Part shown: in pieces, positions 3,132-63,560 of the stretch
How positions within the stretch are numbered: the stretch's first letter is position 1
How the letters are laid out: every line of letters starts with the position of its first letter
Source: Centroscyllium fabricii
Lineage: Eukaryota
Direction: 5' to 3'
Length of the DNA stretch: 64,000 nt
Assembly: GCA_051313645.2 (NCBI GenBank)
Contig: JBNRSN020000012.1
Span: forward strand, 28,024,001 to 28,088,000
The notes under the pieces: generated by a model
Told to the model about the DNA's origin: nothing
The model's database searches: none
Seen by the model: only the letters and a program-made list of their open reading frames with translations
Program-made: the position numbers and the translations under genes

Positions 3132-5057
3132 GGATAAATGCAGGTCTTTCTTCTACTTCTCTCCTGAAGGTGTTGGCGCTTGCTGAGGTACGGCAAATGC
3201 CAGCCCTCTACTACCGCATCCAGGTAGCCATTCGCCCTCTGCGCCTGTTGGCAAGCTATTCAACTGTGGTAATCTTTGCCTGGCATCCATATATGTAGAC
3301 TTTCCAACAGGGGATCATTTGGTAATGACCAAAAGTGGGAATCTTGGCTGATTTCCCCGACGCCCACCCCCGCCCCCCCCCAGTCTCCACCCTTCCTAAG
3401 CCCGAGGGCACTGAGGCCAACTCTGTGCTAATTTAGGAGTCCAATCAGTTAGCTGTACAGCAAATTCTGTGTTGAGATGCAATGTGCTTTTCATGGCACA
3501 GTGCCCAGTATAACTGCTAATTCAAGTCACCGATCTGACTGTGAATGGAATAGTTGCACCTGGCATCTACTACCTTGACTGTCTTTTTAAATCTGCGACT
3601 AATTATCTACACAGGCGTGCCTGGAATTTACACCTGGGGTCTCTTAAGGACCTACTATGGGAACACAGTGTGCAAGCACGCAACACGGTCCTGATTACCA
3701 ATGTACCTGCTTTAAAGGGGCCGCAACACTCGGCCTGCTCTCACACTGCCAGACTGAACACGGCTAACGACCTGACGCTGCGTTCCCATTGGAGGAATGT
3801 CGCGGGGGAGTGCCTCATGGGACGTGGCAGTCGCACAGCCACTCCCCACCAGGATTGTGGAATTGGCCCTTGACTAAGACTGGAGCATGAGTGAGCGTAA
3901 CACAGTATGCAAGAGACACTCGGGTGCTGCTCTTGATCGCGCTTTGATTTTGCCTTCGATTTACGCACTTGCCTTCTGATGGTTTTATTTTGAGCCCTCG
4001 CTGTGTGGGAGTGCCTGTTTCTGATCGTGGTCTGTCCCGCCGCCTTAACAAAGCAATTCAATTCAATTCAATTCAAGTTTTATTGTCATTGCAGAGTACG
4101 AGTACAATACAACGAGATGAAGACTCGCCGCTCCCGAGAGTAGTGCAAATAAATTACATGCAAATTGCATACAGTAAAGTACATTTTCAGGTGTGCAGGT
4201 ACCGGAGTTTTTTTGTTAGAGTTCAGGAGGCTGACAGCCCTGGGGAAGAAGTTGTTCTTGAATCTGGTTGTGCGGGTGCGAATTGATCTGTAGCGTCTCC
4301 CGGAGGGCAGGAGGGCGAACAGACTGTGGCTGGGGTGTGTGGGGTCTTTAATAATGTTCAGAGACCTCCGTAGGCAGCGTTTGAGGTAGGTGCTTTCAAT
4401 TGACGATAGCTGGGTGCCGGTGATTCGTTGGGCAGTTTTGACTACCCGCTGCAGGGCCTTCCAGTCCGAGATGGTGCAATTTCCATACCAGACTGTGATG
4501 CAGCTTGTCAGTATGCTTTCGATTGTGCAGCGGTAGAAGTTGGAGAGGATGCCGGATGACAGCCTGGCTTTTTTCAGCTTCCTTAGGAAGTACAGGCGCT
4601 GTTGGGCCTTCTTAACCAGAGAGGAGGTGTTTAGTGACCAGGAGAGGTCTTCCGAGATGTGGACCCCGAGGAACTTGAAGCTGGACACCCTTTCCACCTC
4701 AGCCCCTTGGATGAAGATGGGGGTGTGTCTTCTGCTTTCAGTCCTCCGGAAGTCCACTATGATCTCCTTAGCTTTCTTGGTACATAGATACATAGATGAT
4801 AGGAGCAGGAGTAGGCCATTCGGCCCTTCGAGCCTGCTCCGCCATTCAATGAGATCATGGCTGATCCTTCAGTTCAGTATCCCGTCCCTGCCTTCTCTCC
4901 GTAACCTTTAACCCCTTTTGCCTGCAGAAATATATCTAATTCCCTCTTAAATATATTCAATGAGCTGGCATCCACTGCCCTCTGTGGTAGTGAGTTCCAC
5001 AGGTTCACCACTCTCTGGGTGAAGAAATTCCTCCTCATCTCTGTCCTAAATGGTTTA

Positions 5058-5344
5058 ATGCAAAAAGTCACACAACACCAGGTTTAAAGTCCAACGTTTT
5101 ATTTTAAATCACAAGCTTTCGGAGCGTCTGCCCCTTCGTCAGGCAAAGAGAAACTGAAGTCAAAGATCACACACATGGGGGAGGGGAGAAATTTCTCTTT
5201 GACTTCAGTTTCTCTTTGCCTGACGAAGGGGCAGACGCTCCGAAAGCTTGTGATTTAAAATAAAACGTTGGACTTTAAACCTGGTGTTGTGTGACTTTTT
5301 GCATTTGTCCACCCCAGTCCAACACCGGCACCTCCGCATTATGG
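5058..5344. mobile_element. Penelope-like element (PLE) fold-back insertion
   Basis: Perfect 109-bp inverted repeat (5058-5166 / 5196-5304) and a 12-bp TSD ctaaatggttta (5046-5057 / 5345-5356); homologous to the PLE end at 16769-16900. Confidence 0.85.
5216..5254 (+). ncRNA. Minimal hammerhead-ribozyme-like core in the PLE terminal repeat
   Basis: CUGACGA-A-GGGGC(AGAC)GCUCC-GAAA-GCUU-GUGA: conserved core, stem II and palindromic AAGCUU, the architecture reported for PLE minimal hammerheads. Confidence 0.6.
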
Positions 5345-8076
5345 CTAAATGGTTTAGCCCTTATCCTTAAACTGTGTCCCCTAGTTCTGTACTCTCCTGC
5401 CATCGGAAACATTCCTTCTGCATCTAGTCTGTCCAGGCCTGTCAGAATTTTATATGTTTCTATGAGATCCCCTCTCAATCTTCTAAACTCCAGTGTGTAC
5501 ATCCCCAAACTAGATAGTCTCTCCTCATAGGTCATTCCTGCCATTCCTGGTATCAGCCTGGTGAATCGCCGCTGCACTCCTTCCATGGCAAGAACATCCT
5601 TCCTCAGATGAGGCGACCAAAACTGCACACAGTACTCGAGGTGTGGTCTCACCAGTGCCCTGTACAGCTGTAGTAAGGTGTCCTTGTTCCTGTATTCTAA
5701 CCCTTTTGATATGAAGGCCAGCATACCATTTGCCTTCCTGACCGCCTGTTGCACCTGCATGCTCGCCTTCAATGACTGGTGCACAAGAACACCCAGGTCT
5801 CTCTGTACTTCCCCATCTCCCAATCTATTGCCATTTAAATAATAATTTGCCCTCCCATTTTTGCCCCCAAGGTGGATAACTTCACACTTGTCCACATTAT
5901 AGTGCATTTGCCATGTATCTGCCCAGTCCCCCAATTTGTCCAAATCGCTCTGGAGCTTCCTGATCCCCTCCTCTGAGCCTACCCCCCCTCCTAGTTTAGT
6001 GTCGTCTGCGAATTTGGAGATGCTGCATCCGATTCCCTGATCTAGGTCATTAATATAAATTGTGAACAGCTGGGGACCCAGGACAGATCCCTGAGGTACC
6101 CCACTTGTTACTGCCTGCCATTCAGAAAATGAGCCGTTTATTCCAACTCTCTGTTTTCTATCTGCCAGCCAGTTCTCTATCCACGTCAATACTTTTCCCC
6201 TTATCCCATGAGCCTTGATTTTACATGCTAATCTTTTATGTGGGACCTTATCGAAGGCTTTTTGGAAGTCCAGGTACACCACATCTACTGGCTCTCCCCC
6301 ATCTATTTTACCAGTTACTTCCTCAAAGAATTCCAATAGATTCGTCAAGCACGATTTTCCTTTTGTAAATCCATGTTGACTCTGTCCTATCCTGTCCCCA
6401 TTTGCCAAGTGCTCTGCTATTACATCCTTAATGATGGACTCTAGTATTTTGCCCACCACCGATGTAAGGCTTACAGGTCTGTAATTGCCCGCTTTTTCCC
6501 TACCCCCCTTTTTAAATAGTGGGGTAACGTTAGCTACCCTCCAATCCATGGGCACTGTTCCCGAGTCTATCGAATTCTGGAAAATTATCCTTAACGCATC
6601 TGCTATCTCTAGGGCCACCTCCTTGAGTACCCTAGGATGCATGTTATCAGGCCCTGGGGATTTGTCAGCCTTTAGTCCCTTTAGCTTCCCCAACACCATA
6701 TCCTTAGAGATATTGATTTTTGTCAGTTCCTCCCTTGCAATTGTCCCTATGGTTCCTGATATCTCAGGGAGTCTTTTTGTGTCTTCCTTTGTGAAGACAG
6801 ACCCAAAATATGCATTTAATTGGTCTGCCATTTCCTTATTTCCCATTATATATTCCCCAGAATCTGACTGTAATGGACCGACTTTGGATTTCACCAGTCT
6901 TTTCCTCTTAATATACTTGTAAAAGCTTTTGGAGTTAGTTTTTATGTTTGCCGCAAGCTTACTTTCGTACGCTATTTTTCCCCTCCTGATTAATCCCTTT
7001 GCCCTCCTTTGTTGTATCCTAAACTGTTCCCAATCTTCAGGTCTGGTGCTTTTTTTGGCTATTTTATATGCTCTTTCTTTGGATTTTATGCTGTCCCTAA
7101 TTTCCCCTGTTATCCACGGTTGAGTCACCTTTTTAGATTTCTTTTTATGCCAGATTGGTATAAACAATTTCTGCAATTCTGCCATTCTGTCTTTAAATGC
7201 TTGCCATTGTTTATCCACCGCCAGTCCCCCCAGAAACGCTGCCCAATCAGACTTACTTAATTCCCGTCTCATGGCATCATAATTCCCCTTATTTAAATTC
7301 AGGACCTTAGTCTCTGAGTCAGTTTCTTCGCTCTCCATTTCGAGTGAGAATTCGATCATGTTATGATCGCTCTGACCCAAGGGTCCCCGTACAACAAGAT
7401 TACTAATTAGTCCCTTCTCATTGCACAGTACCCAGTCTAAGATAGCCTGATCCCGAGTTGGTTCCTCGACATATTGATCCAGATAACCATCCCTTAAACA
7501 CTCAAGGAATTCCTCCTCCTCGTTATTTTTACTAATTTGGCTAGTCCAATCTATATGCAAGTTAAAGTCACCTATGATGACAGCTGAGCTCTTATTGCAT
7601 GCTTCTCTAATTTCCCTTTTGATGCCCTCCCCTACCTCCATATTACTATTTGGAGGCCTATATACCACTCCTATTAACGTTTTCCGCCCCTTGCTATTTC
7701 TTAGTTCTACCCATATAGATTCCGTATTAACCGAGTTAATATCCTTCCTTTCAATTGCATTTATCCCCTCTTTTACCAGCAATGCTACCCCTCCTCCCTT
7801 TCTTTTTTGTCGATCCTTCCTAAATATTGAATACCCCTGTATGTTAAGTTCCCAGCCTTGCCCATCCTGCAGCCATGTTTCCGTAATCCCAATTAGATCA
7901 TATTTGTTTACCTCTATTTCTACTGCTAATTCATCCACCTTGTTCCTAATGCTTCTTGCATTAAGGTATAAAGCCTTCAGGCTTGTTTTTTGCTCACACT
8001 TTTTATGAGTTACTTTGGCCCTTTGTGTATTTTGTTTTTTGTTTCTCACCCTTTTACCATTTATTTCTGGCTGCAT
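5275..8076 (-). CDS. CR1 ORF2: AP-endonuclease + reverse transcriptase, C-terminus cut by a Penelope-like insertion
   Basis: 933-aa ORF with YLNARSI, GITETW, GDFN and SDHN (endonuclease) and YLDFQKAFDKV, QGSVLGP and KFADD (RT). The last ~23 aa derive from the insertion; the true C-terminus resumes at 4874-5057. Confidence 0.92.
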   Translation of the reverse strand: MQPEINGKRVRNKKQNTQRAKVTHKKCEQKTSLKALYLNARSIRNKVDELAVEIEVNKYDLIGITETWLQDGQGWELNIQGYSIFRKDRQKRKGGGVALLVKEGINAIERKDINSVNTESIWVELRNSKGRKTLIGVVYRPPNSNMEVGEGIKREIREACNKSSAVIIGDFNLHIDWTSQISKNNEEEEFLECLRDGYLDQYVEEPTRDQAILDWVLCNEKGLISNLVVRGPLGQSDHNMIEFSLEMESEETDSETKVLNLNKGNYDAMRRELSKSDWAAFLGGLAVDKQWQAFKDRMAELQKLFIPIWHKKKSKKVTQPWITGEIRDSIKSKERAYKIAKKSTRPEDWEQFRIQQRRAKGLIRRGKIAYESKLAANIKTNSKSFYKYIKRKRLVKSKVGPLQSDSGEYIMGNKEMADQLNAYFGSVFTKEDTKRLPEISGTIGTIAREELTKINISKDMVLGKLKGLKADKSPGPDNMHPRVLKEVALEIADALRIIFQNSIDSGTVPMDWRVANVTPLFKKGGREKAGNYRPVSLTSVVGKILESIIKDVIAEHLANGDRIGQSQHGFTKGKSCLTNLLEFFEEVTGKIDGGEPVDVVYLDFQKAFDKVPHKRLACKIKAHGIRGKVLTWIENWLADRKQRVGINGSFSEWQAVTSGVPQGSVLGPQLFTIYINDLDQGIGCSISKFADDTKLGGGVGSEEGIRKLQSDLDKLGDWADTWQMHYNVDKCEVIHLGGKNGRANYYLNGNRLGDGEVQRDLGVLVHQSLKASMQVQQAVRKANGMLAFISKGLEYRNKDTLLQLYRALVRPHLEYCVQFWSPHLRKDVLAMEGVQRRFTRLIPGMAGMTYEERLSSLGMYTLEFRRLRGDLIETYKILTGLDRLDAEGMFPMAGEYRTRGHSLRIRAKPFSHNAEVPVLDWGGQMQKVTQHQV

Positions 8077-8639
8077 TTTGCCTTCCTCTTTTTCACTACA
8101 TAGGTTCCTAGCCCCCTGCCATACTAGTTTAAATGCTCCCGAACTGCTTTAGCAAATATTACCCCGAGAACATCAGTTCCATCTCTGGTGTTCAGTGCCA
8201 GGTTGTTGTCGGCACACCATCCCACAAGGCGCTGGATCTCATCCCTGTAGGCTGACTCATCGTTGTTGGTGATCTGGCCAACCACCGTGGTGTCGTCCGC
8301 AAACTTGATGATCGTGTTGGAGCCATGGACAGCCGCACGGTCGTGAGTGAAGAGGGAGTAGAGGAGGGGGCTCAGCACACAGCCTTGTGTGGCCCCCGTG
8401 TTCAGGGTAAGGGCGGGGGGGAGGTGAGGTTGCCTAACTTCACAGACTATGGTCTGTTGGTTAGGAAGTCCATGGTCCAGTTGCAGGGGGGGGTGTTCAG
8501 GCCGAGGGTGAGGAGTTTGGTAGACAACTTGCTGGGGACGATGGTGTTGAATGCTGAGCTGTAGTCAATAAACAGGATTCTGATATACGTAGCTGTCCGG
8601 GTTGTCACGCTGCTGCTGCACCACCATTTCATTTCACAA

Positions 8640-26976: not shown

Positions 26977-27423
26977 AACGTTTCAGGTCAATGACCCTTC
27001 GTCAGAACTGAGACTTCTTCACTCTCTCCACGGATGCTGCCTGACCTGCTCAGGTTTTCCAGCATTTTCTGTTTTTATTTCAGATTTCCAGCATCCGCAG
27101 TATTTTGCTATTCTGTAAAATATCTGTCGCCTTCAGAGTTTTCCACTTACATTTTTTTAAATGTTATTAAGCTATAAGAAATGATAATTCGCCCATCACC
27201 CTTGTGCTCGCTGATCTGCATTGTCTCCTGGTTCACTGACGCCTCGATTCTAAGATTCTCATTCTTGTTTTCAAATCCCTCCACAGCCTTGCCCCCTCCC
27301 TTTCTATTTACCCTCCTCCACCCCTACAATCCCCTCAGATCTCTGCGCTCCTCCAAATCTGGCCTCTTGCGCACCCACGGTTTTCATCGCTCCACCATTG
27401 GCGGCCGTGCCTTCAGCCGCCTA

Positions 27424-27787
27424 ATAATAATAATTCAACTTTTATTGTCATTATACAATGTACAAGTACATGAACAACGAAATGTGATCTTGCAAGCTCC
27501 CAAGAGTCCAGCAAAGCCGCTGCGTCTGTGCGCGCCGCCATTCCATCTTTCCATCATTCCGACAATCTTCAGCCAACCACCCCTCCCCGGGGTTCCTTTT
27601 GTGACCTCTGCACCTGGTATTCCCTGGTGGTTACCCATCCAAGTACTAACCAGGCCTGGCTCTGCTTAGCTTCCAAGCCTTGCCAGTGGCCCTGTCCCTA
27701 GTCCCAGGAACAGGGTTAAACTTTAGGTCCATTGCCGTGTCATTGCTTTATCCGCAATGCCGTGACTCGGATTCGAACCGAGGTTGC
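27424..27787 (-). mobile_element. Composite retroposon: tRNA-His 3' part + 5S rRNA segment + Rex/Babar-like tail
   Basis: 27758-27787 matches the 3' 30 nt of vertebrate tRNA-His(GUG); 27610-27674 matches the 5S internal control region; tail aatgacaataaaagttgaa(tta)n; gccta is repeated at both junctions. Confidence 0.8.
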
Positions 27788-27902
27788 CTAGGCTCTAAGC
27801 TCTGGAATTCCCCCCCTAAACCTCTCAGCATCTCTTTACTACCTCTCTCCCTCCTCTTTTAAGACCTTTCTTCAAACTTACCTCTTTTCACCTGTCCTAA
27901 TA

Positions 27903-28278
27903 CAGGAAACTCTCGATTTACCGGCACTTAAATAACCGGAAATCTCTGTTAACCGGCAAAATTCAGGAGTAGGTTCAGGTAAGTTTTACTTAATATTTGT
28001 GGCCGTTCCTGGATCTGTGACCGTGTAACCGGGGTTCCTGCACCTGCTGCTAAGCAACAGGGATGCCTGATCTTCTGGCCGGGGTTCCTGCACCTGTTGC
28101 TAAGCAACAGGGATGCCTGATCTTCTGGCCGGGGTTCCTGCACCTGTTGCTAAGCAACAGGGACGCCTGGATTTGTTGTTGTGTACAGGGCTCTCGTACT
28201 TTTTACTATACCTCTCTGGACTTTTTGATAAACCGGCACCACACCAATCCCATCGGTGACGGATAAAAATGTTTCCTG
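27903..28278. mobile_element. Tc1/pogo-like MITE with about 50-bp internal tandem repeats
   Basis: TA|CAGGAAAC...GTTTCCTG|TA; unit ccggggttcctgcacctgttgctaagcaacagggatgcctgatcttctgg present about 2.7 times. Confidence 0.75.
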
Positions 28279-63190: not shown

Positions 63191-63560
63191 TCAACTCAAT
63201 TCAATTTAATTCAATTCAATTCAATTCAATTTATTGTCATTGTAAAGCGAACATACACAATACAACGAAATGCAAACACGCAATCTCCCCAGATATTAAA
63301 ATGTCCTCTAGTCCTAGACAGATCTCTTCCATCCCACCAGGACGACCCGGCGCTCCGGACACGACGGCCTCGATGCTCCAGGTGCCCCGGCCACTCAGGC
63401 CCCGGAGGTCCCGGCACTCAGGCCACGCAGGTCCCGGCACTCAGGCCACGCAGGTCCCGGCACTCAGGCCCCGCAGGACCCGGCACTTAGGCCACGCGGG
63501 TCCCGGCACTCAGGCCACACAGGTCCCGGCACTCAGGCCACGCAGGTCCCGGCCCTCAGG
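63191..63560 (-). mobile_element. Retroposon with a Rex/Babar-like (TTGAA)n tail and a 23-bp tandem array
   Basis: tttattgtcattg...atacaacgaaatg tail as at 4075-4120; unit ggccacgcaggtcccggcactca repeated about 7-8 times (63385-63560). Confidence 0.65.

What the first reader, a model, noticed from the sequence alone, without database searches (positions are those of the whole stretch)
27424..27787. Composite tRNA-His + 5S rRNA + Rex/Babar-tail retroposon (candidate undescribed hybrid SINE)
Seen on the minus strand, in order: GCAACCTCGGTTCGAATCCGAGTCACGGCA (as I recall it, identical to the 3' 30 nt of vertebrate tRNA-His-GUG, including the B box, no CCA); an ~80-nt spacer; a 65-nt segment differing by my count at 8 positions from the vertebrate 5S rRNA A-box/IE/C-box region; a unique body; and a tail (tttcgttgt...aatgacaataaaagttgaa) resembling the Rex1/Babar LINE end at 4055-4120. 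It cleanly interrupts an L2 with gccta at both junctions. Known: SINE heads derive from tRNA, 5S or 7SL RNA and borrow LINE tails; tRNA/5S hybrids are rare. Inference: a 5'-truncated copy of a SINE with both type-2 and type-1 Pol III promoter elements, mobilised by Rex1/Babar.
Basis: partly seen in the sequence, partly recalled or inferred. Interest (0 to 1): 0.75.

Follow-up and report, generated by a model that had tools for sequence, protein, structure and literature searches.

The report
Precursor tRNA captured by 5S SINE
This is one copy of a young, roughly 12,000-copy 5S-RNA-derived retroposon with the 3' end of an unprocessed tRNA-His transcript fused to its front, likely because the copying enzyme jumped between RNAs; it is not a hybrid family, but the same kind of capture recurs with other tRNAs and other retroposons in this genome.

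Summary
The insert is two things joined once. (1) 27424-27717 is a full-length copy of a young 5S-derived SINE: 11,853 exact head matches, all starting at the same 5' hairpin with no tRNA part, and a tail 74% like a nearby LINE. (2) 27718-27787 is 70/70 identical to the last 30 nt of tRNA-His plus 40 nt of 3' trailer, up to the T-run terminator, of a tandem tRNA-His gene array. The junction occurs once in 7.2 Gb. A 5-nt direct repeat flanks both parts, so one insertion event is likely. Best mechanism: a template jump from the SINE 5' end onto the oligo-U end of a nascent pre-tRNA. It recurs: five more copies of this SINE carry other pre-tRNAs, and 13 of 19 dispersed tRNA copies examined abut a SINE head directly, with short leaders and trailers. 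Small-RNA/retroposon chimeras are known (U6-L1, tRNA-R2); precursor capture as a recurrent route, and a SINE3 with this tail, were not found in nine paper searches. Repbase, Dfam and SINEBase could not be checked.

The parts
27786..27790 (-). 5' copy of the 5-nt direct repeat (likely target-site duplication; its last 2 nt are also the first 2 nt of the tRNA piece, i.e. microhomology)
27758..27787 (-). 3' 30 nt of tRNA-His(GTG), with B box, no A box, no CCA
   Evidence: identical to array genes L032-L043; ARAGORN tRNA-His in 8 of 8 other loci scanned, none in this one
27718..27757 (-). 40-nt 3' trailer of the tRNA-His gene, ending in three of the four T of the gene's T-run
   Evidence: 12 array copies 100% identical over 70 nt; genes continue TTTT then diverge from the window
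27678..27717 (-). 5' end of the SINE: start site shared by the family, 11-bp hairpin (27690-27715), not alignable to the 5' part of 5S (11 of 41 matches in register)
   Evidence: fold z -2.3, 5 of 200 shuffles as stable
27605..27677 (-). 5S rRNA-derived segment (5S positions ~44-117) with A box, intermediate element and C box; A box begins at SINE position 47 versus 50 in the 5S gene
27516..27604 (-). SINE body, no match found in Rfam or elsewhere in the window
27434..27515 (-). LINE-like 3' tail
   Evidence: 74% over 84 nt to 4070-4149 and 75% over 75 nt to 63223-63293
27424..27433 (-). (TTA)n terminal repeat, running into the 3' direct repeat
27419..27423 (-). 3' copy of the 5-nt direct repeat
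27200..27960 (-). host repeat (L2-like, label recalled) interrupted by the insert without loss of bases
   Evidence: other window copies at ~13000, ~57300, ~60750 are continuous across the site
4070..4790 (-). 5'-truncated non-LTR retrotransposon with a related tail (candidate partner clade; Rex1/Babar label recalled)
   Evidence: PF09004 hit; homologues are fish RT + PF09004 proteins

Best explanation
The insert is one copy of a 5S-derived SINE carrying at its 5' end 70 nt identical to the 3' end of a tRNA-His gene with its trailer, and it likely arose in a single retrotransposition in which the LINE reverse transcriptase reached the SINE RNA's 5' end and jumped onto the oligo-U 3' end of an unprocessed pre-tRNA-His. 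Steps: the SINE is likely transcribed by Pol III from its internal 5S-type promoter (inferred from the boxes and start position); a LINE enzyme likely binds the shared tail and primes at the target on (TTA)n (inferred); it copies the whole SINE, jumps end-to-end to the pre-tRNA, copies trailer and 30 nt of tRNA and is joined to the target at a 2-nt microhomology, leaving a 5-nt duplication (structure shown, order of events inferred). The product lacks the tRNA A box and has left no daughter copy. The same jump recurs with other pre-tRNAs and with other SINEs and LINEs of this genome.
For: Donor identified: 70/70 identity to array genes, ending at the T-run. Junction unique; family starts without tRNA (11,853 heads). 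Direct repeat encloses both parts and the host is continuous. Same orientation of both parts. Five further chimeras of this SINE, each with its own donor and junction: Sec (L065, 95-96% to an array on C745 including trailer), Asp (L067) and Gly (L071) (Rfam tRNA hits; L071 leader and trailer match gene L165), Met-like (L122; identity by eye, no Rfam hit), Gly (L167). Direct repeats of 5-7 nt read by eye around L122, L071, L167, L067. Dispersed full-length tRNA copies share only 3-20 nt of leader with the array genes, whereas array genes mostly share 80-100+ nt upstream, so they look transcript-derived; 13 of 19 abut a SINE head within 3 nt against a head density of 5e-5 per strand-base in the window. 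In vivo jumps to small RNAs are reported for R2 (PMC3414825, passages) and for L1, L2, RTE and L2-driven SINEs with U6 (PMC4476161, passages).
Against: No experiment; sequence alone cannot separate a jump during reverse transcription from RNA ligation before it. The partner LINE was not found: 24 of 25 tail-pattern hits were SINE copies and one a tail-only piece, and the best LINE tails are only ~74% alike. L065 has no direct repeat and its trailer ends about 10 nt before the gene's T-run. Several trailers run past the first T-run (61, 140, 84, 260 nt). The automated direct-repeat search found no convincing repeat for the tRNA-SINE chimeras. 0 of 5 further tRNA-Sec copies were clearly fused to a retroposon. 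The window's 5' junction rests on the assembly alone.
Confidence: 0.7

Rival explanations
1. RNA-level ligation: the pre-tRNA 3' end was ligated to the SINE RNA 5' end (as proposed for U6/L1 via RtcB) and the fused RNA was retrotransposed.
For: Gives the same sense-orientation, end-to-end structure; PMC13174262 (section 17) lists ligation and template switch as indistinguishable by orientation.
Against: The SINE partners are mostly full-length to their start site; a primary Pol III transcript should carry a 5' triphosphate and RtcB needs a 5'-OH and a 3' phosphate (recalled biochemistry, not tested).
Confidence: 0.11
2. Read-through from a source locus: a SINE first inserted at the terminator of a tRNA-His gene, the tRNA promoter read through it, and the co-transcript retrotransposed (5'-truncated here).
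For: The junction removes the fourth T of the terminator; SINEs prime on T/A-rich sites; tandem arrays may be incompletely assembled.
Against: No source copy: the junction occurs once; none of the array genes seen carries the SINE; every chimera has a different junction, which would need as many lost source loci.
Confidence: 0.1
3. Two separate events or repair capture: a pre-tRNA cDNA was inserted or patched in at the 5' junction independently (second-strand repair, twin priming, or SINE insertion at the end of an earlier pre-tRNA pseudogene).
For: 2-nt microhomology at the 5' junction; 5' junctions of ordinary copies often carry extra bases.
Against: One direct repeat encloses both parts; both parts are nearly unmutated; orientation is sense, while the twin-priming tRNA/L1 chimeras in human are mostly antisense (PMC13174262, section 11).
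Confidence: 0.07
4. One reading: a 5'-truncated member of a tRNA-His/5S hybrid SINE family.
For: Hybrid-head SINE families exist (PMC4494074 passage: RNA-gene heads are occasionally added to SINEs).
Against: Single-copy junction; 0 of 94 other copies inspected at the head carry a tRNA part (29+25+40); the His piece and spacer are explained by the tRNA gene array.
Confidence: 0.02

Closest known systems
U6/L1 and U6/SINE chimeric retrogenes (PMC4476161, passages read)
   Same: Pol III RNA ending in oligo-U fused in sense to the 5' end of a retroposon, one direct repeat around both, recurrent independent events, seen with L1, L2, RTE and L2-driven SINEs
   Different: Donors here are unprocessed pre-tRNAs with leader and trailer; the acceptor is usually a full-length SINE; that paper suggests switching may be restricted to U6/U6atac in human
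R2 template jumps to tRNA in Drosophila (PMC3414825, passages read)
   Same: tRNA sequence at the 5' junction, attributed to an end-to-end jump
   Different: There the donor is mature tRNA with CCA (two cases); here precursors without CCA, in many cases and with several retroposon types
tRNA/LINE-1 chimeras in human (PMC13174262, sections 11 and 17 read)
   Same: tRNA piece and retroposon inserted together in one event
   Different: 21 cases, tRNA halves, mostly antisense (twin priming); here sense, with trailer, often the full precursor
SINE3 class: zebrafish SINE3, AmnSINE1, OS-SINE1, Ped-1, MEG, HaSE3 (tables/passages in PMC3747384, PMC10946416, PMC3272025, PMC7245038)
   Same: 5S-derived internal promoter boxes, short body, LINE-like tail, high copy number
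   Different: Listed partners are CR1-type, RSg-1, BovB/RTE or I; none has the tail type seen here. The first ~45 nt are a hairpin unrelated to 5S. No conserved central domain was tested.
SINE2-5_NV / Rex1-24_NV (table row in PMC3747384)
   Same: a SINE paired with a Rex1-type LINE
   Different: tRNA head, sea anemone

Membership tests
tRNA/5S hybrid SINE family | multiple copies sharing the tRNA-5S junction | tested here: not met
   1 match in the genome; 0 of 94 other copies
tRNA/5S hybrid SINE family | complete tRNA promoter (A and B box) in the consensus | tested here: not met
   only the B-box half is present, and only in this copy
SINE3 (5S-derived SINE) | 5S-derived head with A, IE and C boxes at Pol III distance from the 5' end | tested here: met
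   7/65 mismatches to the genome's 5S; A box at 47 vs 50
SINE3 (5S-derived SINE) | short, non-coding, dispersed, high copy, common 5' and 3' ends, simple-repeat tail | tested here: met
   286 nt; 11,853 heads; median 95.8% identity in 40 consecutive copies
SINE3 (5S-derived SINE) | no internal Pol III terminator (TTTT) | tested here: met
   none in the window copy
SINE3 (5S-derived SINE) | transcription by Pol III | not testable with these tools
   only contigs available; X12 is a guessed RNA run
SINE mobilised by a Rex1/Babar LINE | 3' tail shared with a LINE | tested here: met
   74% over 84 nt, above all 300 shuffles
SINE mobilised by a Rex1/Babar LINE | an active LINE with a near-identical tail | tested here: inconclusive
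   not found among 25 of 284 tail-pattern hits
SINE mobilised by a Rex1/Babar LINE | LINE placed in the Rex1 clade by RT phylogeny | not tested
   RT + PF09004 fish homologues, none named Rex1; label is recalled
Template-switch chimeric retrogene | donor RNA 3' end joined in sense to the retroposon 5' end | tested here: met
Template-switch chimeric retrogene | one target-site duplication around both parts | tested here: met
   5-nt repeat, host continuous; short, partly overlapping microhomologies
Template-switch chimeric retrogene | independent recurrence with different junctions | tested here: met
Template-switch chimeric retrogene | formed during reverse transcription, not by RNA ligation | not testable with these tools
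   needs RNA data or an assay
An existing Repbase/Dfam/SINEBase entry | consensus match to a library entry | not testable with these tools
   no repeat library among the tools

The most novel reading that the evidence does not exclude
In this genome, reverse transcriptases of at least two LINE types routinely finish an insertion by jumping onto nascent pre-tRNAs, so that most dispersed tRNA gene copies are passengers at the 5' end of SINE and LINE insertions. Copies that keep the whole pre-tRNA and lose the terminator (L071, L067, L167) are ready-made tRNA+5S or tRNA+tRNA hybrid SINE masters: the birth step of composite SINE heads caught in the act. The carrier is itself an undescribed SINE3 driven by a Rex1-type LINE.
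Probability: 0.4. Interest if true: 0.65.

Novelty: new variant of a known kind. Interest (0 to 1): 0.45.

Why it matters
The claimed hybrid family does not exist, but the locus is a clean snapshot of how composite SINE heads can arise: donor gene, junction and target duplication are all readable. Because pre-tRNAs with leader and trailer are short-lived nuclear RNAs (established knowledge), their recurrent capture marks where and when non-L1 reverse transcriptases meet their second template, and gives a natural series to test template jumping against RNA ligation. It also warns that dispersed tRNA gene calls in such genomes may be retroposed passengers. The 5S SINE, young and about 12,000 copies strong, would extend SINE3 to a new partner LINE type and could supply insertion markers.

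Tried and rejected
ARAGORN finds no tRNA gene in the window. Rfam hits to mir-587, mir-2060 and L25 at 28078-28176 are below their cut-offs and sit on a local tandem repeat; rejected. A ribozyme at the SINE 5' end was considered from the hairpin; Rfam gave no ribozyme hit. Partner LINE search by a tail pattern excluding the SINE's usual upstream base: 284 matches, 25 read, 24 SINE copies and one tail-only piece. Of 13 B-box-plus-head matches, 9 look by eye like insertions into tRNA-derived SINEs and were not counted; of 3 new matches, L116 and L120 were not counted. Automated direct-repeat search (6 nt or more) around 12 tRNA copies gave only chance-like candidates, and L167 was mis-oriented in that script (corrected). 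Five further tRNA-Sec copies: none clearly fused. In one search, L165, L181, L192 and L193 were treated as genes, not as dispersed copies, without proof. Public runs: none holds half of the stretch (best 0.39); contigs of X1, X5, X12 cover the SINE body and tail deeply, X15 patchily, but no contig bridges this insertion, so presence or absence of the allele elsewhere is open and expression is not shown. Earlier findings of the scan: nothing. Paper searches with no description of this family or of pre-tRNA-trailer chimeras.

Full report
Observation. Rfam finds a 5S match at 27602-27691 (36.2 bits, E 3e-5, gathering 38); ARAGORN finds no tRNA gene in the window. The tail matches a LINE end at 4070-4149 (74% over 84 nt) and a second element at 63223-63293 (75% over 75 nt); both scores exceed all 300 shuffles. 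The flanks belong to one repeat whose other window copies run across the site without a gap; a 5-nt direct repeat lies at both junctions. The labels L2, CR1 and Rex1/Babar are recalled; calls show only that the 4070-4790 element encodes a PF09004 protein whose homologues are fish RT + PF09004 proteins. The repeats present suggest a shark or ray (recalled, not tested).

The SINE. A search of the 7.2-Gb genome with the whole insert gave 2,258 candidates, 40 scored; the 39 other hits are 97-99% identical but begin at query position 69-83, after the tRNA part. In the 29 fetched, upstream DNA is unrelated and the element starts at the same few bases. The 16-nt head word occurs 11,853 times (control 3; some copies have duplicated heads, diverged copies are missed). 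Forty consecutive copies on C1 have a median identity of 95.8% to a central copy, and none has a tRNA at the head; nor do 25 copies picked by a body mutation. Against the genome's own 5S genes the SINE matches 5S positions ~44-117, with 7 mismatches in 65 nt over the control region; its first ~45 nt are not 5S-like (11 of 41) and form an 11-bp hairpin. The A box starts at position 47 (50 in 5S) and there is no TTTT inside, which fits Pol III transcription from the 5S-type promoter (inferred). The window copy differs from a central copy at 4 substitutions and 2 single-base indels. Contigs of public runs from three coded organisms cover the body and tail, a fourth patchily. The partner LINE was not found.

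The 5' addition. The 72 nt in front of the SINE gave 67 candidates, 40 scored; 36 lie in a tandem array on C756 with a ~2.4-kb unit, 12 of them identical over 70 nt. These are complete tRNA-His(GTG) genes (8 of 8 scanned). The match covers the last 30 nt of the tRNA and 40 nt of trailer and stops within the genes' first TTTT. The junction pattern occurs once, in this window. So the addition is a copy of the 3' end of an unprocessed precursor, and the composite is a one-off.

Recurrence. B-box-plus-head patterns gave 13 and 8 matches. Besides the window, four look like tRNA precursors: Sec (L065), Asp (L067), Gly (L071) by Rfam/ARAGORN and a Met-like 3' part by eye (L122; no Rfam hit). The Sec piece with trailer matches an array on C745 (95-96%) and interrupts a LINE reading frame; L071's 6-nt leader and 7-nt trailer match gene L165 with one trailer mismatch; the Asp and Met donors were not looked up. 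A sixth chimera, L167, came from the Gly search. That is at least 6 in ~11,900 heads, a lower bound. Direct repeats of 5-7 nt were read by eye around L122, L071, L167 and L067; none around L065. Of 19 dispersed tRNA copies tabulated (4 His including the window, 15 Gly), 3 abut this SINE, 10 abut the head of one of two abundant tRNA-derived SINEs (L183 after a 260-nt trailer), 1 does so across a later insertion (L052, by eye), 1 precedes a near-complete LINE (L176), 3 precede LINE-like 3' pieces (by eye) and 1 is unassigned. Their leaders match array genes for only 3-20 nt, while His and Gly-B array genes mostly match each other for 80-100 nt. One of those SINE heads occurs 6 times in the window, 5e-5 per strand-base, so adjacency is not chance. 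These copies are the best hits of three searches, not a census; four singletons were treated as genes, and 0 of 5 further Sec copies were clearly fused.

Mechanism. The parts are in sense, end to end, inside one direct repeat, each with its own junction. An end-to-end template jump after the SINE's 5' end onto the single-stranded oligo-U end of a nascent Pol III transcript explains all of this (0.7). RNA ligation (0.11), read-through from an unseen source locus (0.10) and separate events (0.07) remain; a hybrid family (0.02) is excluded in this assembly. The His chimera lacks the tRNA A box and has no daughters; copies with the whole precursor and a broken terminator would carry two promoters and could found hybrid families (inferred, none shown to have amplified).

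Literature. I read keyword passages of PMC5499810, PMC7245038, PMC3747384 (with its SINE/LINE table rows), PMC10946416, PMC4476161, PMC4494074, PMC3414825 and PMC3272025, and the abstract and sections 11 and 17 of PMC13174262; no supplements, which may list further chimeras or families. PMC7245038 states that vertebrate SINE3 families are moved by the CR1 clade; the only Rex1-paired SINE seen has a tRNA head. U6 chimeras with L1, L2, RTE and SINEs are known, as are two R2 jumps to mature tRNA, 21 mostly antisense tRNA-half/L1 chimeras and, by citation, L1-made pre-tRNA retropseudogenes. Nine searches showed no paper on this SINE or on sense chimeras with pre-tRNA trailers; the library lacks most subscription papers and all repeat databases.

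Verdict. Observation confirmed; hybrid-family claim refuted. What remains is a probably undescribed SINE3 family and a recurrent precursor-tRNA variant of a known chimera-forming process. Interest 0.45.

Noticed in passing
G000:C756 ~80.92-81.13 Mb (L032-L060, L206, L207): Tandem array of at least 36 tRNA-His genes, unit ~2.4 kb; the spacer holds a decayed retrotransposon pol-like stretch (read by eye from L040).
   Followed up: partly
G000:C745 ~22.89-23.06 Mb (L082-L090): Cluster of about a dozen tRNA-Sec genes or pseudogenes with TATA boxes, each followed ~25 nt downstream by an antisense LINE tail of the same motif type; 18 tRNA-Sec-like matches genome-wide. Vertebrates usually have very few (recalled).
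   Followed up: partly
L014, L026, L071, L113: 5' ends of SINE copies with partial duplications of the head hairpin, suggesting slippage or self-jumps at the end of reverse transcription.
   Followed up: no
L108:638-1600: A 5'-truncated LINE of the 4070-type family inserted inside a copy of the 5S SINE; this SINE copy ends in the LINE's 5-nt repeat rather than (TTA)n.
   Followed up: no
L103 ~1285-1610: SINE copy with a poly-T tail and a ~15-nt direct repeat, unlike the usual short repeats.
   Followed up: no
L176: Full pre-tRNA-Gly fused to the 5' end of an apparently near-complete LINE, itself inside another LINE copy.
   Followed up: partly
window 5275-8148 (-): Uninterrupted 957-aa endonuclease/RT frame (CR1-like, label recalled), probably a young LINE.
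   Followed up: partly
window 28030-28170: Three tandem ~48-nt repeats that cause the weak miRNA hits.
   Followed up: no
window 63223-63500 (-): Second element with the same tail motif and no coding frame upstream, with a GC-rich tandem repeat body; possibly another non-autonomous family.
   Followed up: no
G000:C734 ~17.57-17.60 Mb (L195, L196): Array of variant tRNA-Gly(TCC) genes (~660-nt unit) without a clean TTTT, donor of four dispersed SINE-fused copies (L197-L200).
   Followed up: partly
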